The position numbers and the translations under genes were made by a program. From positions 1-64,000 of IMG/VR virus record IMGVR_UViG_3300033070_000479: a stretch of 64,000 nt of DNA; one strand, written 5' to 3'. Source of the DNA: a virus. Its lineage: Duplodnaviria; Caudoviricetes. Positions 21,249-32,616 of the stretch are shown piece by piece. The notes beneath the pieces are model-generated. The model worked only from the letters and a program-made list of their open reading frames with translations, searched no databases and was not told where the DNA came from. Every line of letters starts with the position of its first letter. Within the stretch, counting starts at the first letter, position 1.

Positions 21249-23147
21249 TTGTCAGTCGTCGCCACAACTAACCCGTGCGCGTGCCCGGACCCTAATTGGG
21301 ACGACGAGCCGGTGCTCGACCCGCCAGTGCCTCCGCCGGCGGAAGAGAGTTACTCGGTCTCAGATCCGACTTGCTACGGATTTTGTCAGTGGCAGCTGGA
21401 GGATGATGGTAATCTGGTGCTTCTGACTCCGAATGCGTGTGGTTCCGGCTGCGGGTGCTCCGAACCGTGTAGTTGTCCGGCAGAAGCTACCGTCGGATCT
21501 ATCATTTCTAGCCGCTGCTCGGTAAATCCGTCTAAGGTAGACAAAATCTCATGCGCCTCTCTGACGTCAACTACCACTACTGCAGACCCTAACTCTACAA
21601 CCACCGTAGACCCAAATGCCGACGGCTGCTGCACGAGGACTTTAACTTACTACACCGTCTCCGATGCTCAAATTATTTGTAACCCATCTCCGTACGACAT
21701 ACCGGGAACAAACCGTATATGGCTGAGCGAGAAACTCGAACCAAATACAGAGCAGTGTGCTCAACTTTTTAGGATGTACGGAGTTTACGGGGCGGGCTTC
21801 GGCGAGCAAACTCCCGAGTCAGCTGCATGCTCGACTGTTCGAGAAGTACGAAACACGCAAACATCGGTAGGATGTGGAGGTACGATCACGACTACGTTGT
21901 GCGCCGAGTTGCCTAAGTGCAGCGGCTCGTGCGCGTACGTTACCCTATTAAATACTGATACTGACGAACTAGAGTGGTTTAGAGGGTGCAGCACCTGCTG
22001 CGAAGAGACAAGTGACTACGGGGATAAATGTAACTGCGATGTGCCGCTAAATCCCCCCGTCAGTCTTTGCTCCGCGGCCATAACTAGGTGCGGCGATGAT
22101 CGCGGAAGCGGTAACTGCACCGGCACCTGCTTATTTCAGTACGACAAGCCAGGCGGCGGATGGGAGTACGTATCGTCACAGTGTCCCGGGTGCTCTTGTT
22201 CTCCGCCAGACTGGTCGGACATACCTGACACTGACGGAGAGTATCGTTGCACACCGTGCCTGGTCCCTAACGACCCGCCAACGTCTTCCACGACTACTGA
22301 GAGCCCATGCCCGTGCAGCGACTACTGCACGTGGCGCAAAGAAGACTCCGGCTGGACGCAGACCGTCGACTGCGTACTAGGGTGCTGCTCGTGCCAACAG
22401 CCGGTGTTTATTGAGGGCCTGCCGGACGGCACCTTGGCCCAGACGCCGTGCGTGGACTCTAGCCTACCGACAACGACGTCGACCACTACCACGACCTCAG
22501 GGCCGTGCATCAACCTGTGCGAAGTCAAGTACCAGACCGCAACGGTCTCGGGTGTAACCGGGTGCTTCTTAACCCGAGTTACTGGATCGGACGGGTGCTC
22601 GACCCCGTGTCAGTGCCCCGGCAGAACTCTCACAGCGCCGGATACAAATCTTGTAGCTACCGGGTCTTGCCCGGCTCCGCTGGAAGGCGCTACGGCCTGG
22701 GTGCCGTGCGAGCCGGAACCGACCACGACAACGACGACTACCACGACGACTACGACCACGGCCGCCCCAGTGTTCTCATGCGTGTGCTGCCCTCCGTCCG
22801 GAGGTGGTAACGGGTTCACGTCGAGAGCATGTATGTCCGGGTCTCAGACGTTCTGGGAAGGCCTCGGATGCACGGTGTTCGGTGAGTACTCGTCCTCTGG
22901 GGCCTGCACGTCTGCGTGCGTCGGCCCGGACTGCAGATGGGGCGGGTACCACTGCCGCAAGTATCCGAGCATTACCGGGCCGGCTGGTCCGAAAGTGTGT
23001 ACGTGCGTGCCGGAAGAGACTGTCGGCGGCCTAGGGTTGTGCGCGGCGCCGTTCGCAGACTTGGCTTCGTGCCTAGCCGCTAACTGCGGGTCGATCACGC
23101 CCACTACGGCCGGGCCTACGACGGAGCCGCCGTTGGGCGGGGACTAA
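21249..23147 (+). CDS. Cys-rich modular protein with Thr-rich linkers (putative fibre/adhesin)
   Basis: About 64 Cys in 632 aa by my count; five copies of a CxxxC...C..C.C.P...C module; Thr runs up to 13 residues. Confidence 0.7.
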   Translation: MSVVATTNPCACPDPNWDDEPVLDPPVPPPAEESYSVSDPTCYGFCQWQLEDDGNLVLLTPNACGSGCGCSEPCSCPAEATVGSIISSRCSVNPSKVDKISCASLTSTTTTADPNSTTTVDPNADGCCTRTLTYYTVSDAQIICNPSPYDIPGTNRIWLSEKLEPNTEQCAQLFRMYGVYGAGFGEQTPESAACSTVREVRNTQTSVGCGGTITTTLCAELPKCSGSCAYVTLLNTDTDELEWFRGCSTCCEETSDYGDKCNCDVPLNPPVSLCSAAITRCGDDRGSGNCTGTCLFQYDKPGGGWEYVSSQCPGCSCSPPDWSDIPDTDGEYRCTPCLVPNDPPTSSTTTESPCPCSDYCTWRKEDSGWTQTVDCVLGCCSCQQPVFIEGLPDGTLAQTPCVDSSLPTTTSTTTTTSGPCINLCEVKYQTATVSGVTGCFLTRVTGSDGCSTPCQCPGRTLTAPDTNLVATGSCPAPLEGATAWVPCEPEPTTTTTTTTTTTTTAAPVFSCVCCPPSGGGNGFTSRACMSGSQTFWEGLGCTVFGEYSSSGACTSACVGPDCRWGGYHCRKYPSITGPAGPKVCTCVPEETVGGLGLCAAPFADLASCLAANCGSITPTTAGPTTEPPLGGD

Positions 23148-23160
23148 ACAGGAGACTCTC

Positions 23161-24972
23161 ATGGACCGTGACTTTACTGTCGGCATGGCGTGCTTCAACG
23201 ACTTTGACGGCGTCTACTTCACAGTAGAGGCTCTGAAAGTGTTTCACGCCGACAGGGTGGCGCAGATCATCGTCGTTGACGACTCGCCCGAAGGCCCGGT
23301 CCAAGAACGGACCATGAAGTGGTGCCGTAGGCTGTCCAACGTGCTCTACGTCCGGTCTCACGTACACGGCACCTCGGCCCCGCGTAACCGGGTGTTTGCG
23401 GAGGCTACGTCTGAGAAGGTTGTGTGCATCGACTCACACGTCCTGATACACCCCGGGTCGTTTTCTGCCCTGGACGACTTCTGGGCCGTTACTGCCGGCC
23501 ACGGTATCCGCCTAGCTCACGGCGTCTTGATGGAGGACGACAACCGGGTTCCGCTGTCGTCGTTCCGAGACGAGTGGGGCGACGACCTGATGCACGGGAA
23601 GTGGCACACAGACACAGCACAGTTTCCTCTGACTAACCTACGCGTGCCCGGTACCGCGGCGTACGCGTCCGATGACCTCGGACGTCCGGTCGCCGCCAAG
23701 CCGTGGATCGACGTGTGGTCGCAGGGGCTGGGCGGGTTCGCCTGCCTTAGGGACGAGTGGCCGGGCTTCCACCCGGGGTTTTCCCAGTTCGGCGGAGAAG
23801 AGGGCTACATTGACGACAAGTTCAGGCGTATGGGCGGGATGGCGGTATCCGTATCCGGGTTCCGGTGGACTCACCGATTTCATGACCAGGACGTCAAAAC
23901 ACCGGCCTCCTCCTATTCGAGATCTACTGTCGCAAAGTTCCGGAACTACGTACTCGGACGTCGAGACAATTTACTACAGACTGCTGATGTCACGGCGGCT
24001 TACGCCGGTAAAGGACACCCCGCCGAGAGGTGGGCGTCCGACGTAGAGACGGAAGTAAATGCTAAGCCGTCGAAGACGCAAGGCTCAGTCACCGTCTCCG
24101 CCCCTGCCCCCGCCAAGAAGTGCGGAGGGTGCGGAGCGGGTGGGTCCAAGGAGGTTGCCGAAAAGTGGGCTGAGGTCATGTCCCGCAACGCGGAGTTGCG
24201 GGCCATGATCGAATCCGTGAAATCGATAGCCGCAGGAAAACACGTGTGGGTAGGGCCTGAGGCGTACGCAGGCGTCCTGGAGTCGTCGGCGTGCGTGGCG
24301 GCAGTGGCGGCAGGCGCCGCGTCGGTAACCCTGTGTGTGCCGAAACAGGACGATACGACTAAGAACTGGGTTCAGTCCGTCACGTCCATGCTGTCCGACA
24401 AGGTGTCTGTGTCGAGCCGAGACATGTGGCCAGGTCAGGCGATCGTGCTGTCCCCCGTAGGACTCCCTGGCGCCGTAAAGGAGTACACGCACGAGATCTC
24501 TAAGGTGGGGTCGTCGTGGGTCGTGTCGACGCGCGCCGCAGAGCCGAAGAGGATTCCGCTGCCGGTAACCAACGCGGCCGCAGTCGCCGCACAATATCCG
24601 GATCACGCTGTCGTGAAGTCCGCCACCGGAAAACCGGAATTGGCTCCGGTGTGGGAACTGGACCCGTCCGTCAAGGTACTGCCGGGTCGCGGCCGCATGG
24701 CGCTCAACTACTTGAAGTTTCTGACGTCGGATAAAGAGCAGGCCACCCCGGAAGTCGCCAAAGAGCGCATGGACAAGTGCTGGACGTGCCCGAACCGTAA
24801 GCCGGTGCTGTACCCGGACCGCAACTGGTACCAGCGGTGTACGGATACGGAAGAAGCTAAGGGGTGCGGCTGCTTCCTGGACTGGTCTCCGCCTAACCCC
24901 AACAACAACACGCAGCCCGAGCCGGGTAAGGTGGCTTACGCCGACCAGGCCTGCCCGCGCGGATTTTGGTAG
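23161..24972 (+). CDS. GT2/GT-A glycosyltransferase with C-terminal Cys-motif domain
   Basis: FTVGMACFND...IIVVDDS...RNRVF...VVCIDSH (DxH variant of DxD), FGGEEGYI; C-terminal CxxC...C...CGC...CP.G.W; CAGGAG SD. Confidence 0.8.
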   Translation: MDRDFTVGMACFNDFDGVYFTVEALKVFHADRVAQIIVVDDSPEGPVQERTMKWCRRLSNVLYVRSHVHGTSAPRNRVFAEATSEKVVCIDSHVLIHPGSFSALDDFWAVTAGHGIRLAHGVLMEDDNRVPLSSFRDEWGDDLMHGKWHTDTAQFPLTNLRVPGTAAYASDDLGRPVAAKPWIDVWSQGLGGFACLRDEWPGFHPGFSQFGGEEGYIDDKFRRMGGMAVSVSGFRWTHRFHDQDVKTPASSYSRSTVAKFRNYVLGRRDNLLQTADVTAAYAGKGHPAERWASDVETEVNAKPSKTQGSVTVSAPAPAKKCGGCGAGGSKEVAEKWAEVMSRNAELRAMIESVKSIAAGKHVWVGPEAYAGVLESSACVAAVAAGAASVTLCVPKQDDTTKNWVQSVTSMLSDKVSVSSRDMWPGQAIVLSPVGLPGAVKEYTHEISKVGSSWVVSTRAAEPKRIPLPVTNAAAVAAQYPDHAVVKSATGKPELAPVWELDPSVKVLPGRGRMALNYLKFLTSDKEQATPEVAKERMDKCWTCPNRKPVLYPDRNWYQRCTDTEEAKGCGCFLDWSPPNPNNNTQPEPGKVAYADQACPRGFW

Positions 24973-24995
24973 ACACACGCTAACAGGAGTTTCCA

Positions 24996-25811
24996 ATGGC
25001 TACGCCTCTAGTGACCGCCATGTGCCCTACGTTCGGTAGACTCCCGAAACACAGGCACTTGCTGTGTCAGTCGGTATGGTGCTTTACGCAGCAGGATTAC
25101 CCCAACAAAGAGATGGTGATCCTGAACGACGCGCCGAATCAGACGATAGGTTGTACGGTTCCAGGCGTGCGCGTCATTAACTGCCCGTCGCGGTACAAGA
25201 GTCTAGGCGAAAAGCGCAACGCCCTCCTGGCCCACGCACGGGGCGAAATACTGTTGCCGTGGGACGACGACGATATCCACCTATCGGGCCGGATGTCGCA
25301 GGCGGTAACTATGCTGGACGGGTTCGAATACTGGAACCCTCAGGCTTCGTGGTACATGAACCCTGTCGAGACGGGCGGGGCGTTGTCTCACACCCACAAC
25401 CACGGCGTGTGCCACAACGCTTCTGCTTTTCGAGCCGGGGCGGTATGGTATGACCCGGTGTCCGGCGGAGAAGACCGTAAAGCCGACCTGCGGGCCAAGG
25501 CAAGTAAAAAGACGAACCACCGGAACCTCGTGAGCGACCCGGCGTCGTGGGAGTACATCTACCGGTTCGGGGTCGGCAAACATATCTCGTCCGTCGCTGA
25601 AGATAGGTCACAGGAGGAGTACGACCGACGTACCGCTACGCCGGGTTTGTTTTACATCAGCCCCGAGGAGCCTCCTGAGTTCAAAGAGTGGATGAAGCAG
25701 CGGAGTGCCGCCCTGGGGCCGTCCATTCAGATAAGCCACACGTCAACGCCTGGGCCGGAGATGCGGAAGCCGACCTTCCTAGAACGACTTCTGGGGGTAT
25801 GGACGCGATGA
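24996..25811 (+). CDS. GT2-family glycosyltransferase
   Basis: LVTAMCPTFGR...QDYPNKEMVILND...LGEKRN...GEILLPWDDDDIHLSGRMSQAV. Confidence 0.88.
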   Translation: MATPLVTAMCPTFGRLPKHRHLLCQSVWCFTQQDYPNKEMVILNDAPNQTIGCTVPGVRVINCPSRYKSLGEKRNALLAHARGEILLPWDDDDIHLSGRMSQAVTMLDGFEYWNPQASWYMNPVETGGALSHTHNHGVCHNASAFRAGAVWYDPVSGGEDRKADLRAKASKKTNHRNLVSDPASWEYIYRFGVGKHISSVAEDRSQEEYDRRTATPGLFYISPEEPPEFKEWMKQRSAALGPSIQISHTSTPGPEMRKPTFLERLLGVWTR

Positions 25812-26686
25812 CGCCATCCGCCGCAATAACCGAGTCTCTAGCTTCCGCGGACCAGTCGCGCATTGTCGACGGTACCGGTGTTGGGGTGGTTACTTGCGGC
25901 GGAGGTCCCTACCAGTACGGCATCTACGTACTGGTAAAAATGCTGCGTCTGTGCGGCTACGCCGGCGGGGTGTGGGTGTGGCACCGCGGGCCGGCTGAGC
26001 CGGTCTGCAGCGCCATTCGAAAGATGCCCGGCGTTACGGTGGTGGACGTCGTTAAGGACGCGGAAGACAACGGGCTGAGAGCCCCCGCCGGTGGCTGGGA
26101 ATGCAAGGCGTACGCCATGGCGCGGACACCGGTTAAGGTAGCCGCCTTCTTTGACGCAGACGCGTACCCAGTCAACTCGATCGACGCGTGCCTCGAAACT
26201 GCCGAGGCCGAAGGAGAAGTTTTTTGGCGTGACCTGGATAACGCCAACCTGCAGTGGAGATCGTTAGGTCTAGAAGTCCCCAAGCCGAAGTGGATTCCCG
26301 TCAACGGCGGGCAGTGGGTCGTTAACCGCGAACTCCGCAAACCGCAGCTCGCTCTCTACTCGGCGCTCACCGACAGAAGCTCGGTGCTGTACCGGTACAT
26401 GCTGGGCGATCAAGACTGCCAGTTGCTGGCATGGTACCTGACCAACACCAGGTACTTCATCGGAGACCTCGAAGAGGTGCGCCAAGTGAGCGGTGTGCTC
26501 GTGTACGACTTTCCTCACGGCAGGACGCAGGTGCTGCACCGCATCGGGTCGAAGATGGCGCCGTCCGGAATGTTCTCGCGTGGCACGTACTCTGGTCCGG
26601 TTAGAGGTCTGCCTCTGGAGCGACAAGCCACCTCTTTTTACGCCGAAGCCGTAGACGCCGTCGGCGTGCCGATTCGCGCTAAATAA
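25808..26686 (+). CDS. GT71/Mnn2-like alpha-mannosyltransferase-family protein
   Basis: GVVTCGGG, GWECKAYA, FFDADAYP (DxD), FWRD, NGGQWVVNR and GDQD motifs; ATGA coupling gives a start at 25808. Confidence 0.65.
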   Translation: MTPSAAITESLASADQSRIVDGTGVGVVTCGGGPYQYGIYVLVKMLRLCGYAGGVWVWHRGPAEPVCSAIRKMPGVTVVDVVKDAEDNGLRAPAGGWECKAYAMARTPVKVAAFFDADAYPVNSIDACLETAEAEGEVFWRDLDNANLQWRSLGLEVPKPKWIPVNGGQWVVNRELRKPQLALYSALTDRSSVLYRYMLGDQDCQLLAWYLTNTRYFIGDLEEVRQVSGVLVYDFPHGRTQVLHRIGSKMAPSGMFSRGTYSGPVRGLPLERQATSFYAEAVDAVGVPIRAK

Positions 26687-26790: not shown

Positions 26791-27135
26791 ATGAGCGTTC
26801 AAGGAAGCAGCGACAACCTGATCAGCGTCACGTACCAGCCGGCCAGCTCGGACGTGCCGGTGGTCGTCCAGCTGCCGGCAGGCAGCACGGTCGGGCACTT
26901 GCTCGCCCACCGGGCGGTCAACTCCTCGGCGACTGGTCTGGTGTTCTTGGTCAACGGCAACAAGTCCACCACGGAGACGATTCTGTCGGAGGGCTCCCGG
27001 GTCGTCTCGATGAAGGCCAAGGTGGCCGGGGCCGTGCTCGTCGGTCAGGAAGACGACATCTACGCGATCGACGCTAGGCTGGCTGCCGGTATGGAAGCGG
27101 CCTACAAGGCCTTCAAGGCCTGCGCCGGGCTCTAA
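26791..27135 (+). CDS. ubiquitin-like (beta-grasp, ThiS/MoaD-like) protein precursor
   Basis: VQLPAGSTVGHLL...FLVNG...TILSEGSRV beta-grasp signature; fold ends at KVAG (G80) and is followed by a 34-aa extension. Confidence 0.75.
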   Translation: MSVQGSSDNLISVTYQPASSDVPVVVQLPAGSTVGHLLAHRAVNSSATGLVFLVNGNKSTTETILSEGSRVVSMKAKVAGAVLVGQEDDIYAIDARLAAGMEAAYKAFKACAGL

Positions 27136-27141
27136 GACAGA

Positions 27142-28293
27142 ATGTTAACCGAAGCTCAACGCTCCCACGCCGCCGCGCAATTTGCCGCGGCGGCGTGGTC
27201 TTTGTCTACCGCGGCATGCCAGAGTGCGCCGCGCGGACCGTGGATCAACGAGCTGGCGACCTTATCCCACGCCATCTACGAAAAGACCAGTCGGTACAAC
27301 GCGGCCGTTCAGAGCCCCGCATCGTACGGCGGATCTCGAGGCGTGGCTACCAGATTCAAAGAGCTGAAGCAGGCGTGCGCCAAGTGGCGGAGTACGTACG
27401 CGAGGGCTATGGCCGGAGGACTCAAAGATCTGTCGTGGACGAGGCAGTCGGCGATTCCAAAGACCTTGGTGCAGACGGCAGAATCGGGTCTGGTGGGTTT
27501 GGAGAAGGACGGGTTCGTCCTCACGTACAGCATCGAGCAGAAGACTCTGACAGTGCATGCTCGTGAGCCGACGATAATCGAGCTACAGTACGACCACGCC
27601 GTTCACGGGACCGGCAGCAGCGCGGCGAGAACTAGGCTGGAGAAGATAAAGGCGTCTTTCCCGATCCCGCTAAACTTCGGGAGGATGAAGCTCACGTTCA
27701 GCCTCGGCAATACCGACATGCTGAACTACGACGCGTACATCAACGCCATGGCTAGATGCGCCTTTACTGGGTCCAAGACGATAAAGAGCGGCAACTACTA
27801 CCACCCGCACGTCAAGAGCGACGGGGTGGTGTGTCTGGGCGATACGGTCCGGGCCTGCAACAACATGTTCAAGAGCGGGTCCATCAGCGAGATCGTGCAC
27901 ATCTTCGCGTTGGTGTGTTCGAACTACAACAGGCACAGCCCGTACATCGATCTGCACAGGTTCGTCCTACCTTCCTGCGGTGCATGCGGTGGGTGGGAGT
28001 GTCCGCCGACTCAGGAACAGCGCGAAGACGTAATCAAGAAGTGCTTCTCGTGCCGAAGGGACGTCTGCCGTCGCAATAGGTGCTCGGAGGTGTGCGCTGA
28101 GACTGGTAACTTCGCGTGCATGTCCTGCCTCAGGAAGTGTACGGCGTGCAGCAGGGGTTACGCCGTCAACAGCAAGGGGTTCGCGTCGTTCGTGTCTTAT
28201 CCGGGTAAGTGCGGGGTCTGTACGGGCACGCTGCCGGCCAGCACCCTGCTATCCGAGCAGTCCGAGACCGGCACACAAGGGCCGTCTACGTAA
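27142..28293 (+). CDS. E2 (UBC-fold) conjugating enzyme fused to a Cys-rich zinc-finger region
   Basis: YYHPHVKSDGVVCLG matches the E2 HPN(I/V)..G.ICL motif (C231); NYNRHSPY matches the downstream N..SP motif; 14 Cys in aa 279-360. Confidence 0.75.
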   Translation: MLTEAQRSHAAAQFAAAAWSLSTAACQSAPRGPWINELATLSHAIYEKTSRYNAAVQSPASYGGSRGVATRFKELKQACAKWRSTYARAMAGGLKDLSWTRQSAIPKTLVQTAESGLVGLEKDGFVLTYSIEQKTLTVHAREPTIIELQYDHAVHGTGSSAARTRLEKIKASFPIPLNFGRMKLTFSLGNTDMLNYDAYINAMARCAFTGSKTIKSGNYYHPHVKSDGVVCLGDTVRACNNMFKSGSISEIVHIFALVCSNYNRHSPYIDLHRFVLPSCGACGGWECPPTQEQREDVIKKCFSCRRDVCRRNRCSEVCAETGNFACMSCLRKCTACSRGYAVNSKGFASFVSYPGKCGVCTGTLPASTLLSEQSETGTQGPST

Positions 28294-29268
28294 GTGATCA
28301 CAATCAACAGAAGGACAGATAATATGCCAGACGGCGGACCGGTCATCTCCGGTGAAATCGCGGCGACGGACAAGTCGAATTCGGTAGTGAAGACCAGATT
28401 GCGCGGGGTGGACAAGGACGGCAACGCGCACAGGCTCGTCATGAGCCCTACCGCGTTCCTGCAGGCGAAGACCATGGTGTTCTGCGACGATAGGGAGATA
28501 TCGGCCATGGCGGTCGTCGCCGAAGACGACCCTCTGTACGTCGAGCGCTTCGACATCGTCGAACAGGAAGGCAGCTCGGCCTTTACCGAACTTGACGGCG
28601 CCGCCCTCCTCTGCCGGTCCGAGTCCTACTCTCAGTTGGGCATCGGGTACGACAGGACTATGCGGGTGTGGTTCCACACGCACCCGTTCAGCTGTGCGGC
28701 TAACCCGTCCGCCACCGACAACAGCACGTTCGCGGACGTGTTCGGCAACATGCCGTTTGCCGTGATGCTCATTCACAGCAAGGACGGCAGTTGGGGCGCC
28801 ACACTGCGGGTCGGGCAGGGCAAGATCGGCGTCAAGACCAAGCTCTCCGGAGTAGAGGTCGACTGGTCCGCCGTACCGGACATGCCGGCGTTTGACCCGC
28901 AATCCGTGATCGACGAGGTCAAGAAGCAGGTCAAGACGCGGGCGTACCAGGCCGTGCAGTTTTATCAGCCGACGCACGCTGTCAGCGGTAAGCGCTGGGA
29001 CAGCGATTACGGCGGCAACCGGTGGTGGGACAAGGCGACGAAGGTCGACAACGGACCGATCACGCACGCCGGCGGCGTGGTGAAGGGGAAATTCGACGGG
29101 GGTTACGGTCCCAGCGAGGAATACCGCCCGAACCGTAAGACCAAGAAGCGCCGCCGCACCAACGTGTCGTACGAGGACGCCGCGAAGATGTGGGAGACCG
29201 ACTTTGCGGACGCCGACGCCCTGGAAGAATACCTGCGTAACGCCGAGCAGCACGATGCGGGCGAGTAA
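28294..29268 (+). CDS. JAB/MPN+ (JAMM) metalloprotease (putative Ubl-processing enzyme/DUB)
   Basis: E68...H128-T-H130-P...S139-x-x-D142. Alternative start at ATG 28324 with an AAGGA SD. Confidence 0.88.
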   Translation: MITINRRTDNMPDGGPVISGEIAATDKSNSVVKTRLRGVDKDGNAHRLVMSPTAFLQAKTMVFCDDREISAMAVVAEDDPLYVERFDIVEQEGSSAFTELDGAALLCRSESYSQLGIGYDRTMRVWFHTHPFSCAANPSATDNSTFADVFGNMPFAVMLIHSKDGSWGATLRVGQGKIGVKTKLSGVEVDWSAVPDMPAFDPQSVIDEVKKQVKTRAYQAVQFYQPTHAVSGKRWDSDYGGNRWWDKATKVDNGPITHAGGVVKGKFDGGYGPSEEYRPNRKTKKRRRTNVSYEDAAKMWETDFADADALEEYLRNAEQHDAGE

Positions 29269-29956
29269 CGTCGTCGACACGCCGATCAGTGCGCGAAACG
29301 AGCGCCAGCGGTCGGTCTTGCCTGAGGCGGCTCTCTTGTTTCGTCCGGCAGTAGTCATCGGGGTGGGGGCTATCGGACGCCCTACGGCCGAGATGCTGTC
29401 CGGTACCGGTGTTCGCAGGCTGGACCTCTGGGACTTCGACACGGTCGAAGAGGTCAACATCGGCAACCAGGGTTACAGGCCTTCCGACGTCGGTAAGCGT
29501 AAAGCCGACGCCTGTAAAGAGTTCTGCGTGGCGAAGTCGCCGTCCTCGGCCGTGCGCGCCATGTACGAGGCGGTCGGCCCGTCCACGTCTATCACGGACG
29601 AAAGTCCCGAAGACGTAGCGGTGTTTTGCTGCGTGGACAAGATGTCCGCCCGCAAGGAGATCGCCTCTCTCTGCAAGGCGAACGGGGTTGGCCTGTTTGT
29701 CGACACCCGCATGCTGGGGGACGACGTACGCGTCTACTGCTGCCGTACTCCTGAAGCGTACGAGGTGTACCTTAAGGAGCTGTTTACAGACGAAGAGGCC
29801 GAACCCGGACGGTGCGGGAATTCCTCTAACGTCTACGCGTCAAACACGGCCGCCTCTCTGGCGGTCAAACTGTGGACCTTGTGGCTACGGGATCTCCCGA
29901 GCCCCAAGGAAGTTGTGGCGACCCTTAGCGGGTTCGCAATCGTGGCCGACTACTAG
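29255..29956 (+). CDS. ThiF/MoeB-family E1-like adenylating enzyme
   Basis: VIGVGAIG, DFDTVEEVNIGNQ, GKRK, FCCVD and FVDTRM motifs; candidate catalytic C187 (EPGRCG); no CxxC zinc motifs. Confidence 0.9.
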   Translation: MRASNVVDTPISARNERQRSVLPEAALLFRPAVVIGVGAIGRPTAEMLSGTGVRRLDLWDFDTVEEVNIGNQGYRPSDVGKRKADACKEFCVAKSPSSAVRAMYEAVGPSTSITDESPEDVAVFCCVDKMSARKEIASLCKANGVGLFVDTRMLGDDVRVYCCRTPEAYEVYLKELFTDEEAEPGRCGNSSNVYASNTAASLAVKLWTLWLRDLPSPKEVVATLSGFAIVADY

Positions 29957-29993
29957 TCGGCCTTTCTTTACCGACCCCATAACAGGAGAGAAC

Positions 29994-31334
29994 GTGGCCA
30001 AAGCCAAAGGAACTTCCGCGTCTGTGGCGCAATCGCTGCCGTCGACTCTGACCGCCGACGGCATCGAGGACATGATCGTCAAGTGTGTGCAGTCCCACGT
30101 GGTCCCGATGATCTGGGGTCCGCCAGGGGTCGGTAAGACCCGTCGCATCGAGGCCGTGGCCCGGCGTCTGGCCCAGCACACCGGGTTGTCGGCAGAAGTT
30201 CACACGCTGATCTGCTCCATGTGCGAACCCAGCGACCTGGCCGGCTTCCCGATCGCTGACGGAAAATACCGCCGGCCGGACGGGTCGGACTTGTCGGTGG
30301 TCCAGTTCGCTCCGCGGGAGTCCTTTGTGCGCTTGGCGACGCACGGCGGCGTCCTGTTCTTCGACGAGCTGTCCACGGCCCCACCGTCCATCCAGGCGGT
30401 GGCGCTGCGGATCATCAACGACCGCGTCGCCGGCGACATTCACTTGCCGCCGAACAAAGTCGCCATGATCGCCGCCGGAAACCCGCCCGAAACGGGGGCC
30501 GGCGTGTTCGACCTGTCGGCGCCGATGGCCAACCGGCTCTGCCACCTCCAGTGGCCGACGGACTCGCAGTTCCGCCGGGCCTGGGCGGAAGACTTCATCT
30601 CGTACTGGGGCAGCCCGCCGAAGGTGGAGTTCAACGGCCGGCAGGTTCCGGAGGAGTTCTACTCGCGGGCCCGGCGCGCCGTCTCGGCGTTCATCATGGC
30701 GAGCCCGGAAAACCTGCTGCCGGTTCCCGGTCAGTCCTCGACCGGAACCGGTACGATCGCCGACCTGGCGTACCCGACGCCCCGGTCGTGGGACGCCGCG
30801 GCCCGCGTGCTGGCGTCCGGCGAAAGCCGGCTGTTCGATAAAGAGGAGGGCCAGGCCATGCTCAGCCTGATCTCCGGCCTCGTCGGCACCGGCCCGGCGC
30901 AGGCGTTCTCCAAGTTCATTCGCGACTCGGACCTCCCCGACCCGGTCCGGCTGCTGGAAAACCCGGAGTCGTACCAGCCGCAGAAAGAAAACTTCGTGGC
31001 TTACGCGACCGTGACGGCCGTCGTAAACCTGGTACTGTCGTACCTGGCCGTGAGCCGGGATGAGCTGCGGGCGGCCAAGTCTTCGGACCCCGTCTACCGC
31101 AAGGCCGTCAAGTACGTCATGAACGGCGCCAAGCTCGTGGTGGCCGCCGGCGAAGGACGTCTGGAAACGGCCAAAGGCCCTCTGGACCGGCTGCTGGCGG
31201 CGGCCCGGGAAGTCCACCTGACGCAGCAGGAGCAAGTGGCGCTCAACTCCATCACCGCACCGTATGCGAAGGACATGCAGCGGTACAAGAACATGGTCGT
31301 CACCAGCGTTCGGACCGTCTCCACGGAAAAGTGA
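29994..31334 (+). CDS. MoxR-like AAA+ ATPase
   Basis: Walker A GPPGVGKT, Walker B LFFDE, AAGN sensor 1, LSAPMANRL, PTPRSW; CAGGAG SD before GTG 29994. Confidence 0.9.
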   Translation: MAKAKGTSASVAQSLPSTLTADGIEDMIVKCVQSHVVPMIWGPPGVGKTRRIEAVARRLAQHTGLSAEVHTLICSMCEPSDLAGFPIADGKYRRPDGSDLSVVQFAPRESFVRLATHGGVLFFDELSTAPPSIQAVALRIINDRVAGDIHLPPNKVAMIAAGNPPETGAGVFDLSAPMANRLCHLQWPTDSQFRRAWAEDFISYWGSPPKVEFNGRQVPEEFYSRARRAVSAFIMASPENLLPVPGQSSTGTGTIADLAYPTPRSWDAAARVLASGESRLFDKEEGQAMLSLISGLVGTGPAQAFSKFIRDSDLPDPVRLLENPESYQPQKENFVAYATVTAVVNLVLSYLAVSRDELRAAKSSDPVYRKAVKYVMNGAKLVVAAGEGRLETAKGPLDRLLAAAREVHLTQQEQVALNSITAPYAKDMQRYKNMVVTSVRTVSTEK

Positions 31335-31347
31335 GGACCAGACGACG

Positions 31348-32616
31348 ATGACTAGTTCAGAACGGATTACTGCGGCCAAGTTGCTGGCCGTGCAGTGGTG
31401 GCCGTACTTGGCGGACGCCGTCGTCCGCCTCCCGGTCAGGTTCTCTCCCGGCGTCCCGACCATGGGCGTCTCGAAAGATTGGATCCTGTACATCAACCCG
31501 GAATGGGCGGACAAGCAGAGCGTGGCGATGTTGGCCCTCATCATCGCCGGTCACGAAGTCGGTGGGCACCTGCTCAACGACCACGCGTGCCGCGCAGCCG
31601 GGTTGCACCACGAACTGTCGAACATGGCCGGCGACTTGGCCATCAACTGTCACCTGAAGAACTACCGCGACAGCGCCTGCTTGAGCGGTGCGAAGGATCA
31701 GATCACGGTCCCGGATGACCCTGAAGAGGCCCTCTATCCGAAGAACTTCAAAGCCAAGGACGGTACGCCTTTTCCAGACAACCTGATGATGGAGGAGTAC
31801 TACGCCCTACTCCTCGACAACGCCACACTCATCGGTACCGGCCAAGGGAAAGGAGACGGCAAAGGGAAGTGCAAGTGCGGGTCCGGCGCCACCGGGGTCG
31901 CGGAAGACTGGGAGGAGGGCACGTCTGTCGGACAAGACGGCCAAGACCAAGGAGTCAGTCCGGCGGAAGCGTCTCTGATTCGCGACGCGGTGGCTGCTGC
32001 GTGCAAGAAGCACGAAGAGCAGCGCGGACGTGGGTCAGTGCCGTCCGGGCTACTGCGGTGGGCTGACGACAGGCTCCGCCCGCCACAGGTTCCCTGGACG
32101 ACGCAGATACGCAGGCACATCCAGCGTATCGTGGCGGGGCGCGGCAGGGGTGACTACTCCTACACGCAGTACAACCGCCGGTCTCAGGGTCGTCTGATTC
32201 TGCCGGGCATGGTTGAGCACAAGAAGAAGTGCAACGCGGTTCTGGACACGTCCGGAAGTATGTGTGACGAACGCATACGGGCCGGCTTGTCCGAGCTGGT
32301 GGCGGCGGCTTCTCACCTTGGCCCTATCCAGCTGTTTGCGTGCGACGCCGCGGCGGCTGACGCCGGTACGCTGCGTACCAAATCGGACGTGAAGAAGCTG
32401 AAACTGCAGGGCGGAGGCGGCACCGACATGGGTGCAGGCCTGAACGCCGCCGCAGAGTCCAAACCGACGTTTACGTTGGTACTAACCGACGGCGACACCC
32501 CGTGGCCGGAAGACAAACCTACGGGGTTAGGAGAAATCCTGGTCGTGCTTATCGGCCGGTACGGGGCAGACCGAGTTCCGGACTGGGCCGAATGGGTGGC
32601 TGTCGACGACGGCTGA
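31348..32616 (+). CDS. metallopeptidase-like domain plus vWA domain protein (DUF2201-type)
   Basis: HEVGGHLLNDH, NMAGDLAIN, CGSGA; MIDAS residues DTSGS, GGGGTD and LTDG; GAGGA SD before ATG 31348. Confidence 0.85.
   Translation: MTSSERITAAKLLAVQWWPYLADAVVRLPVRFSPGVPTMGVSKDWILYINPEWADKQSVAMLALIIAGHEVGGHLLNDHACRAAGLHHELSNMAGDLAINCHLKNYRDSACLSGAKDQITVPDDPEEALYPKNFKAKDGTPFPDNLMMEEYYALLLDNATLIGTGQGKGDGKGKCKCGSGATGVAEDWEEGTSVGQDGQDQGVSPAEASLIRDAVAAACKKHEEQRGRGSVPSGLLRWADDRLRPPQVPWTTQIRRHIQRIVAGRGRGDYSYTQYNRRSQGRLILPGMVEHKKKCNAVLDTSGSMCDERIRAGLSELVAAASHLGPIQLFACDAAAADAGTLRTKSDVKKLKLQGGGGTDMGAGLNAAAESKPTFTLVLTDGDTPWPEDKPTGLGEILVVLIGRYGADRVPDWAEWVAVDDG

What the first reader, a model, noticed from the sequence alone, without database searches (positions are those of the whole stretch)
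27970..28230. E2 is fused to a 14-Cys zinc-finger array: possible built-in E3/substrate receptor
After the UBC domain come CGAC, C, CFSC, C, C, C, CMSC, CTAC and CGVC (five CxxC pairs). Bacterial Ubl systems such as Bil lack a separate E3, and a RING/B-box/FYVE-like module fused to the E2 would be a eukaryote-like E2-E3 hybrid. A helical N-terminal region of about 170 aa is also unexplained.
Basis: partly seen in the sequence, partly recalled or inferred. Interest (0 to 1): 0.72.

Follow-up and report, generated by a model that had tools for sequence, protein, structure and literature searches.

The report
Phage E2 enzyme with zinc-finger tail
A river phage carries its own four-gene ubiquitin-like tagging kit, and its carrier enzyme (E2) ends in a cysteine-rich zinc-finger tail that belongs to a large family I found in no paper or curated library and that may choose what gets tagged, though that role is untested.

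Summary

- **E2 identity.** Residues 105-277 are a UBC-fold E2 with HPH221-223 and Cys231. Residues 1-100, not 170, form a helical hairpin.
- **Family.** The tail is a reduced copy of an array of about ten CxxC pairs. That array is present in 71 of 111 remote homologues, which lie in large phage-like contigs and Planctomycetota genomes. This copy lacks five Cys positions that 87-96% of the family keep.
- **Cassette.** In every locus with enough flank, the gene sits in a conserved Ubl-E2-JAB-E1 cassette that has no E3 gene.
- **Fold.** Prediction places the tail among cross-braced two-zinc fingers (RIM/FYVE/PHD/RING class), with weak scores (Z up to 5.2). It is not a canonical RING, B-box or FYVE.
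- **Role.** A built-in target-selecting or E3-like role is plausible. The E2 is the fastest-evolving cassette member, the tail's non-Cys surface is only 19% conserved, and a quarter of homologues (27 of 111) have few or no tail Cys. The role remains untested.
- **Prior reports.** Pfam, PHROGs, PADLOC and NCBIfam gave no match at a family's own cut-off, and I found no paper on it. This scan has already reported the same family on other DNA (e1-1361989, e1-3113804, e1-5313991).

The parts
26791..27135 (+). Ubl precursor (beta-grasp, ThiS-like). Gly80 (27028-27030) is invariant and is followed by a 34-aa extension.
   Evidence: Weak Pfam ThiS hit. In an alignment with four cassette Ubls, Gly80 is invariant; the homologues end 2-4 residues after it.
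27142..28293 (+). E2 gene with zinc-array tail (383 aa plus stop)
   Evidence: ORF. 110 remote homologues. AF2 model with mean pLDDT 80.8.
27142..27441 (+). N-terminal helical hairpin (aa 1-100), variable across the family
   Evidence: Helices 4-27, 33-57 and 65-100. Only generic helical matches. 23.8% pairwise identity among six cassettes.
27454..27972 (+). UBC (E2) catalytic core, aa 105-277
   Evidence: VIA-align: Ube2K 7myh_A Z 6.9, rmsd 3.5, 118 residues aligned over model 105-276; Ubc13 4nr3_B Z 6.5, 127 aligned. UBC enzymes fill much of the Foldseek list, none at E 0.001 or better. Family profile hits PDB E2s at E 0.01-0.1.
27802..27834 (+). Active-site motif HPH221-223 ... Cys231-x-Gly233
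   Evidence: H221, P222, C231 and G233 are invariant and H223 is at least 90% conserved in 101 sequences. The motif aligns with HPN...Cys of UbcH5c in the profile search.
27976..28221 (+). Cys array, aa 279-360 (14 Cys). Predicted multi-zinc, cross-braced fingers.
   Evidence: Cys pattern and conservation. Domain model pLDDT about 90 for aa 297-346. VIA-wide hits are almost all FYVE/RIM/PHD/RING class.
28222..28293 (+). Low-confidence C-terminal tail and TAA stop
   Evidence: pLDDT below 50 for residues 371-380. Sequence read.
28294..29268 (+). JAB/JAMM peptidase. The start is GTG 28294 or, more likely, ATG 28324 behind an AAGGA.
   Evidence: HTHP...S..D motif. Weak Prok-JAB hit. tblastn to cassette JABs at E 1e-13 to 1e-22. 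DNA read.
29204..29956 (+). Minimal ThiF-type E1 (true start uncertain)
   Evidence: Pfam ThiF E 6.8e-22. tblastn to cassette E1s at E 1e-17 to 1e-35.

Best explanation
The gene encodes the E2 of a phage-borne, E3-less ubiquitin-like conjugation cassette (Ubl, E2, JAB peptidase, minimal ThiF-type E1).

**Shown or strongly supported (about 0.85)**
- Residues 105-277 are a canonical-type UBC fold with an HPH motif and catalytic Cys231.
- Residues 279-360 are a compact metal-binding (most likely zinc) array of CxxC knuckles. It is a cut-down version of a conserved array of about ten pairs and is predicted to fold as cross-braced treble-clef fingers.

**Inferred mechanism (about 0.4)**
- JAB trims the Ubl to Gly80.
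- E1 adenylates the Ubl and passes it to Cys231.
- The E2 transfers it directly to target lysines.
- The zinc array, probably together with the variable N-terminal hairpin, acts as the protein-binding module that brings targets or adaptors to the active site. The E2 would then carry its own specificity element in place of a separate E3.

The targets are unknown. They could be host, competing-phage or the phage's own proteins.
For: **E2 identity**
- Invariant H221, P222, C231, G233.
- UBC enzymes fill much of the Foldseek PDB list and score Z 6-7 across residues 105-277 in the VIA-align second look.
- 12 of 101 relatives hit UQ_con.
- Two Planctomycetota E2s that pass the UQ_con cut-off carry a similar array of 18-20 pairs.

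**Array**
- 14 Cys, P about 1e-9.
- Cys columns are 80-100% conserved.
- 71 of 111 homologues have at least 8 tail Cys.
- The domain model matches almost only the FYVE/RIM/PHD/RING class.
- Similar arrays also occur as stand-alone proteins of about 100-130 aa.

**Specificity role**
- The cassette Ubl-E2-JAB-E1 is conserved with no E3 in ten loci.
- The E2 is the least conserved member: 36% mean pairwise identity against 45-50% for JAB, E1 and Ubl.
- Within the E2, the UBC core is 44% identical, while the N-terminus is 24% and the non-Cys array positions 19%.
- Array net charge ranges from -30 to +10.
- 27 of 111 homologues have fewer than four tail Cys. One of them (P0004) keeps a homologous E1 and a JAMM-motif gene in the same order.
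Against: - There is no direct evidence of metal binding, Ubl charging or target binding.
- Fold matches are weak (Z at most 5.2; Foldseek E at least 0.18).
- Fast evolution of the array surface fits an unconstrained scaffold as well as a recognition surface.
- This copy lacks five Cys positions that 87-96% of the family keep (T321, A341, S344 and the last pair). At least one ancestral zinc site is probably lost or rewired, so the module may be decaying here.
- I could not read model coordinates, so neither the ligand wiring nor the array's position relative to Cys231 is known.
Confidence: 0.42

Rival explanations
1. The array is a structural or regulatory zinc scaffold. It would stabilise the E2, drive oligomerisation or act as a redox- or metal-sensitive switch, with no part in choosing targets.
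For: - Only the Cys positions are conserved; the surface is 19% identical and varies widely in charge.
- Pair number varies from 2 to 20.
- This copy has lost conserved ligands yet the gene stays intact and identical in four runs.
Against: - A pure stabiliser would not be expected to be swapped for unrelated Cys-free tails in a quarter of relatives.
- It would also not be expected to exist as a free-standing protein.
- The cassette still needs a specificity element, and none is encoded elsewhere in it.
Confidence: 0.25
2. The array is a true RING-type activator acting in cis. It would fold back on its own UBC domain and hold the donor Ubl in the closed, reactive conformation, which is an E3 mechanism in the strict sense.
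For: - Model residues 312-376 align to RING, IBR and U-box domains at Z about 3.5.
- An all-Cys RING-like spacing can be drawn at 301-360.
- No separate E3 is present in the cassette.
Against: - The canonical RING signature is absent.
- The relaxed pattern skips C309, C314 and C318, and dense CxxC arrays match such patterns promiscuously: 54 of 71 family members match.
- The best fold matches are RIM/FYVE-type, not RING.
- A surface that grips the conserved UBC core and Ubl should itself be conserved, but non-Cys positions are 19% identical.
- Relatives without the array keep the cassette.
Confidence: 0.1
3. The array is a docking platform for other cassette proteins. The minimal E1 lacks a ubiquitin-fold domain, so the array could recruit E1, JAB or the Ubl.
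For: - The E1 is only about 215-250 aa, so it lacks the usual E2-recruiting domain.
- Many zinc fingers bind ubiquitin-like proteins (general knowledge).
Against: - The partners are 45-50% conserved, while the array surface is 19% conserved.
- The P0004 cassette, whose E2 has no array, keeps a homologous E1 and a JAMM-motif gene in the same order.
Confidence: 0.1
4. The array binds nucleic acid or otherwise localises the E2, for example to phage or host DNA.
For: - This copy's array is basic, net +6.
- RNA-ligase genes lie next to the cassette in three related large-phage loci.
Against: - The family median net charge is -9, and only 18 of 71 arrays are positive.
- No nucleic-acid-binding zinc-finger family was matched.
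Confidence: 0.07

Closest known systems
BilABCD (Type I/II bacterial ISG15-like anti-phage operons; bioRxiv 10.1101/2023.09.26.559546 and 10.1101/2023.09.04.556158)
   Same: - Four genes in the same order: Ubl, E2, JAB, E1.
- No E3.
- The Ubl carries residues after the conserved Gly, which a JAB is expected to remove.
   Different: - BilB E2s conserve a catalytic Cys and a downstream His (CEHH class). This E2 instead has an upstream HPH, like eukaryotic HPN E2s.
- BilB was not described there with a zinc array.
- The E1 here is a minimal ThiF of about 215-250 aa.
- The cassette is carried by a phage.
- PADLOC models match only the ThiF part of the E1.
Eukaryote-like E1/E2/small-RING cascades of Caldiarchaeum and some bacteria (PMC5654768; Burroughs et al. 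2011, cited in PMC7159879)
   Same: A canonical-type UBC E2 is associated with a treble-clef zinc finger, an E1 and a JAB peptidase in one gene cluster.
   Different: - There the RING is a separate small protein with a RING signature.
- Here the zinc module is fused to the E2, is an all-Cys multi-pair array and fails the canonical RING pattern.
E2/E3 hybrid enzymes of eukaryotes (UBE2O, BIRC6); from general knowledge, not tested here
   Same: A UBC domain carries its own substrate-binding domains and works without a separate E3.
   Different: - Their appended domains are unrelated: conserved regions and coiled coil in UBE2O, BIR and a giant scaffold in BIRC6.
- No homology was detected.
RIM / rabphilin / Slp4 / FYVE zinc fingers (2cjs_C, 2csz, 2yw8, 1joc)
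   Same: These are the best structural matches to residues 276-347: Z 4.3-5.2, rmsd about 3 A, 50-59 residues aligned. All are cross-braced, two-zinc protein-interaction modules.
   Different: - No FYVE lipid-binding motif (R[RK]HHCR) is present.
- Scores are weak.
- The array has more Cys than one two-zinc module needs.

Membership tests
UBC/E2 superfamily (Pfam UQ_con PF00179) | UBC alpha/beta fold | tested here: met
   AF2 model residues 105-277 align to Ube2K, Ubc13, UbcH5 and Rad6 at Z 6.0-6.9, with 115-127 residues aligned. UBC enzymes fill much of the Foldseek list at weak E-values.
UBC/E2 superfamily (Pfam UQ_con PF00179) | HPN-type motif about 10 residues upstream of the catalytic Cys | tested here: met
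   HPH221-223 and C231. H221, P222 and C231 are invariant in 101 sequences. The motif aligns to HPN...C of UbcH5c. Asn is replaced by His.
UBC/E2 superfamily (Pfam UQ_con PF00179) | Score above the Pfam gathering threshold | tested here: not met
   No Pfam hit for this protein, even at E 1. 12 of 101 relatives hit UQ_con at E no higher than 0.01.
UBC/E2 superfamily (Pfam UQ_con PF00179) | Forms a thioester with an E1-activated Ubl | not testable with these tools
   Needs biochemistry.
RING finger (C3HC4 / C3H2C3) | Eight ligands with canonical spacing and His at ligand 4 | tested here: not met
   Regex scan: no match in the query. A relaxed all-Cys pattern fits 301-360 only by skipping three Cys, and it also fits 54 of 71 family members, so it is not diagnostic.
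RING finger (C3HC4 / C3H2C3) | Cross-brace two-zinc fold | tested here: inconclusive
   RING, IBR and U-box chains align to model residues 312-376 at Z about 2.6-3.5.
RING finger (C3HC4 / C3H2C3) | Binds an E2 and stimulates Ubl discharge | not testable with these tools
Needs an assay.
FYVE domain | R[RK]HHCR phosphoinositide-binding motif | tested here: not met
   Absent from the query and from all 71 array-bearing relatives. Fold similarity only, Z 4.1-4.7.
B-box zinc finger | Cys/His ligand pattern with terminal His ligands | tested here: not met
   B-box1 and B-box2 patterns match 0 of 71. Only an all-Cys relaxation fits, at 279-326. One relative hits zf-B_box at E 0.004.
BilABCD operons | Gene set and order Ubl-E2-JAB-E1 without an E3 | tested here: met
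   Window genes. The same order is seen in ten related loci.
BilABCD operons | BilB-type E2 (conserved Cys plus downstream His; Pfam Prok-E2 families) | tested here: not met
   No Prok-E2 or PADLOC hit for the E2. The motif here is upstream HPH; the BilB features were read in 10.1101/2023.09.26.559546.
Unnamed E2-zinc-array cassette family (large phages and Planctomycetota elements) | HPHV..G..C.GD ... YN..SPY core followed by a CxxC array | tested here: met
   110 HMMER hits at E below 1e-3 across residues about 175-365. Consensus. The query keeps 13 array Cys in family columns but lacks five conserved ones.
Unnamed E2-zinc-array cassette family (large phages and Planctomycetota elements) | Homologous Ubl, JAB and E1 flanking in fixed order | tested here: met
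   The window's JAB and E1 hit those of the other cassettes at E 1e-13 to 1e-35. Ubl Gly80 is invariant.

The most novel reading that the evidence does not exclude
This family is a natural, virus- and mobile-element-borne E2-E3 hybrid. A canonical HPN-type UBC enzyme is permanently fused to a rapidly diversifying multi-zinc treble-clef array. The array alone selects host-defence or rival-phage proteins for Ubl tagging, so phages would run a self-contained ubiquitin-like system as a weapon or counter-defence.
Probability: 0.3. Interest if true: 0.8.

Novelty: new variant of a known kind. Interest (0 to 1): 0.6.

Why it matters
- **Who carries it.** Ubiquitin-like conjugation in bacteria has so far been studied as an anti-phage defence (Bil, CBASS Cap2, Bub). 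Here the machinery is carried by phages and mobile elements.
- **What kind of E2.** Its motif is closer to eukaryotic E2s (HPN-type) than to BilB.
- **How targets might be chosen.** A fused zinc module could explain how an E3-less cascade finds targets. It also offers a compact system (four genes, one variable domain) for studying how E2 specificity evolves.
- **Size of the family.** The family is large: 110 clusters at 50% identity here. An ESM Atlas cluster of 2,546 mostly Planctomycetota proteins is also its nearest structural neighbour, and that is a lead only. It is absent from Pfam, PHROGs, PADLOC and NCBIfam, so these genes are currently annotated as hypothetical.
- **Evolutionary interest.** If the array proves to be E3-like, it would bear on how E2-RING cooperation arose.

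Tried and rejected
- **Family libraries.** Pfam, PHROGs, PADLOC and NCBIfam scans of the E2 and of the isolated tail gave nothing above any family's own cut-off; the best were chance-level hits at E 0.06-0.17.
- **Sequence searches.** tblastn against 50,697 phage records found no match. The word-indexed search of 5.8 billion proteins returned only the protein itself. phmmer against PDB gave only a chance hit.
- **Fold search, whole model.** VIA-wide was swamped by generic helical hairpins matching the N-terminus.
- **Fold search, tail model.** Foldseek against PDB and BFVD gave nothing at E 0.001 or better.
- **Related viral loci.** The search for related loci with family alignments failed because no stretch was conserved enough.
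- **Zinc wiring.** I tried to infer which Cys pairs share a zinc from co-loss across 54 aligned arrays. The result was inconclusive, because single pairs are lost alone and the alignment of repeated units is unreliable.
- **Pattern matching.** RING, B-box, PHD and ZZ regexes are promiscuous in dense CxxC arrays and are not diagnostic.
- **Expression.** No RNA holder was listed among the sequencing runs.
- **Stand-alone arrays.** Those in three Planctomycetota genomes have no cassette genes within about 5-8 kb, so they are not obvious split E3s.
- **MoxR/vWA link.** The MoxR and vWA genes downstream in this window do not accompany the cassette in six related loci.
- **Literature.** Five full-text searches found no paper on an E2 fused to a CxxC array or on phage-encoded cassettes of this type. 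Burroughs et al. 2011 could not be read.

Full report
**Setting.** The window is the first 64 kb of a 79,985-bp IMG/VR virus record that CheckV estimates at about 54% complete. Genes are densely packed on the + strand and no tRNA genes were found. The finding lies in a 383-aa ORF at 27142-28293.

**Observation.**
- Cys sit at 279, 282, 287, 301, 304, 309, 314, 318, 326, 329, 333, 336, 357 and 360.
- That makes five CxxC pairs and four single Cys in 82 residues, against six Cys in the other 275.
- The binomial probability is about 1e-9 to 3e-9.
- Contigs from four public runs in two studies, one of them a riverine metagenome, carry the operon. The only difference is 27851 G>T (R237L) in one run, and there are no differences in the array. 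Two of these runs may be the source of the window.

**The E2 part.**
- No curated library recognises the protein at a family's own cut-off.
- An exhaustive HMMER search of 1.84 billion representative proteins found 110 relatives at E below 1e-3, mostly across residues about 175-365.
- In an alignment of 101 sequences, H221, P222, C231 and G233 are invariant. H223, Y262, N263 and Y268 are at least 90% conserved.
- Twelve relatives hit Pfam UQ_con.
- The family profile finds PDB E2s at E 0.01-0.1. It aligns HPH...C with HPN...C, and YN..SP with the PNPDDP segment of UbcH5c.
- An AF2 model built with this alignment has mean pLDDT 80.8 and pTM 0.69.
- UBC enzymes fill much of the Foldseek PDB list, though no match reaches E 0.001.
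- In the VIA-align second look they score Z 6.0-6.9, with 115-127 residues aligned over model residues 105-277.
- Residues 1-100 are a helical hairpin with only generic matches. The unexplained N-terminal region is therefore about 100 aa, not 170.

**The array is a family feature.**
- Seventy-one of 111 sequences have at least eight Cys after the UBC core, typically ten CxxC pairs with alternating 4- and 3-residue spacers.
- In an alignment of 54 array-bearing members, the family Cys columns are 80-100% conserved.
- The window's protein keeps pairs 1, 2, 3 (widened to Cx4C), 5, 6 and 8, and half of pair 4.
- It has T321, A341 and S344 where 87-96% of the family have Cys, and it lacks the last pair, which 94-96% have. 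C287 is its own.
- It is therefore a reduced array, enough for about three zinc ions rather than five.
- Which Cys share a zinc could not be settled. Model coordinates are not exposed and the co-loss analysis was inconclusive.

**Fold of the array.**
- A separate model of residues 267-383 has mean pLDDT 75.8, and about 90 for residues 297-346.
- Foldseek found nothing at E 0.001 or better in PDB or BFVD.
- VIA-align against 48,161 chains gave only 140 chains with Z of at least 2. The top 50 are almost all cross-braced two-zinc fingers.
  - RIM zinc finger 2cjs_C: Z 5.2, rmsd 2.8 A, 50 of 54 residues aligned.
  - Slp4, RUFY, EEA1 and endofin FYVE domains: Z 4.3-4.8.
  - PHD fingers.
  - For residues 312-376: RING, IBR and U-box domains at Z about 3.5.
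- These scores are weak in absolute terms, but the class is consistent.
- Pattern tests show no canonical RING, B-box, PHD, ZZ or FYVE signature. Relaxed all-Cys patterns fit but are not diagnostic.

**Genomic context.**
- Upstream lies a ThiS-like Ubl. Its Gly80 is invariant among cassette Ubls, and the window's copy carries an unusual 34-aa extension after it.
- Downstream lie a JAMM peptidase and a minimal ThiF E1.
- The same four genes in the same order occur in L002, L003, L006, L007, L008 and L009. These come from contigs of 8.6 to 221 kb; four are 166-221 kb and phage-like. RNA ligase lies next to the cassette in three of them, and Gad2 and NAPRTase in L009.
- The same order occurs in the Planctomycetota genome loci L012, L014, L015 and L016.
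- In a sample of 201 Planctomycetota genomes, five hold full-length copies and two of those hold three each.
- None of these cassettes encodes an E3. The MoxR and vWA genes that follow in this window are not conserved partners.

**What the array probably does.** Four lines of indirect evidence point to a specificity or adaptor role.
- The cascade has no E3, and the E1, JAB and Ubl are minimal.
- Across six cassettes the E2 is the least conserved member: 36% against 45-50%.
- Within the E2, the UBC core is 44% identical, the N-terminus 24% and the non-Cys array positions 19%. Array charge ranges from -30 to +10.
- The array is modular.
  - 27 of 111 relatives have fewer than four tail Cys. One of them keeps a homologous E1 and a JAMM-motif gene in the same order.
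  - Two E2s that pass the UQ_con cut-off carry longer arrays.
  - Similar arrays occur as free-standing small proteins.
  - As a lead only, similar arrays may sit on HerA, Mrr and amidoligase proteins.

A poorly conserved surface argues against a role in gripping the conserved UBC core, E1, JAB or Ubl. That weakens the strict RING-activator and docking readings. The same data fit an unconstrained structural scaffold, and this copy's lost ligands may mean decay. Nothing here shows metal binding, charging or target binding.

**Comparison and novelty.**
- The cassette works like Bil, but its E2 is HPN-type rather than BilB-type.
- It resembles the archaeal and bacterial E1/E2/small-RING clusters, except that the zinc module is fused to the E2 and is not a RING.
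- I found no paper describing it.
- This scan has already reported the same family on other DNA; my tests agree with those notes.

**Verdict.** It is a new variant of a known kind.

Noticed in passing
window 27028-27135: The Ubl's invariant Gly80 is followed by a 34-aa extension. The four aligned cassette Ubls end 2-4 residues after that Gly. The extension may be a pro-peptide removed by the JAB peptidase, or an added function.
   Followed up: partly
window 29688-32616: MoxR-type AAA+ (PHROG 1297) and DUF2201 metallopeptidase/vWA (PHROG 1314) genes follow the E1. In six related cassette loci no AAA or vWA gene lies next to the cassette, so this linkage is not a conserved part of the system.
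   Followed up: partly
L007 13040-14191; L008 8051-9136; L009 8176-9474: An RNA ligase (PHA02142/RNA_ligase) lies within about 1 kb of the cassette in three large phage-like contigs. L009 also has Gad2 and NAPRTase nearby, which hints at an anti-defence neighbourhood.
   Followed up: no
L018 3-1208 (-); L019 1166-2497 (-): Two Planctomycetota proteins pass the Pfam UQ_con cut-off (HPNI...C motif) and carry 18-20 CxxC/CxxH pairs. Zinc arrays are therefore also fused to fully canonical E2s.
   Followed up: partly
L022 7882-8412; L023 7894-8214 (-); L024 7911-8306 (-): Free-standing proteins of about 100-130 aa consist of an eight-pair CxxC array with the family's spacing plus an acidic tail. They sit in housekeeping-like contexts (FtsY, M24 peptidase, kinase-FHA) without cassette genes nearby.
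   Followed up: partly
window 27851: This is the only variant seen across four runs: G>T in one run, changing Arg237 to Leu in the helix just after the active-site Cys.
   Followed up: no
window 21249-26686: A Cys-rich protein with long poly-Thr linkers is followed by three ORFs without PHROG hits. Other first-reader notes read these as glycosyltransferases; I did not examine them.
   Followed up: no
ESM Atlas structural neighbours of aa 270-365: The Atlas's own model of the tail aligns at TM 0.54-0.68 with Cys-rich parts of archaeal HerA/DUF87 ATPases, Mrr-type nucleases, a viral cluster in which 19% of members carry Amidoligase_2, and eukaryotic Siva. This is a lead that the array may be a widely shared adaptor module.
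   Followed up: no
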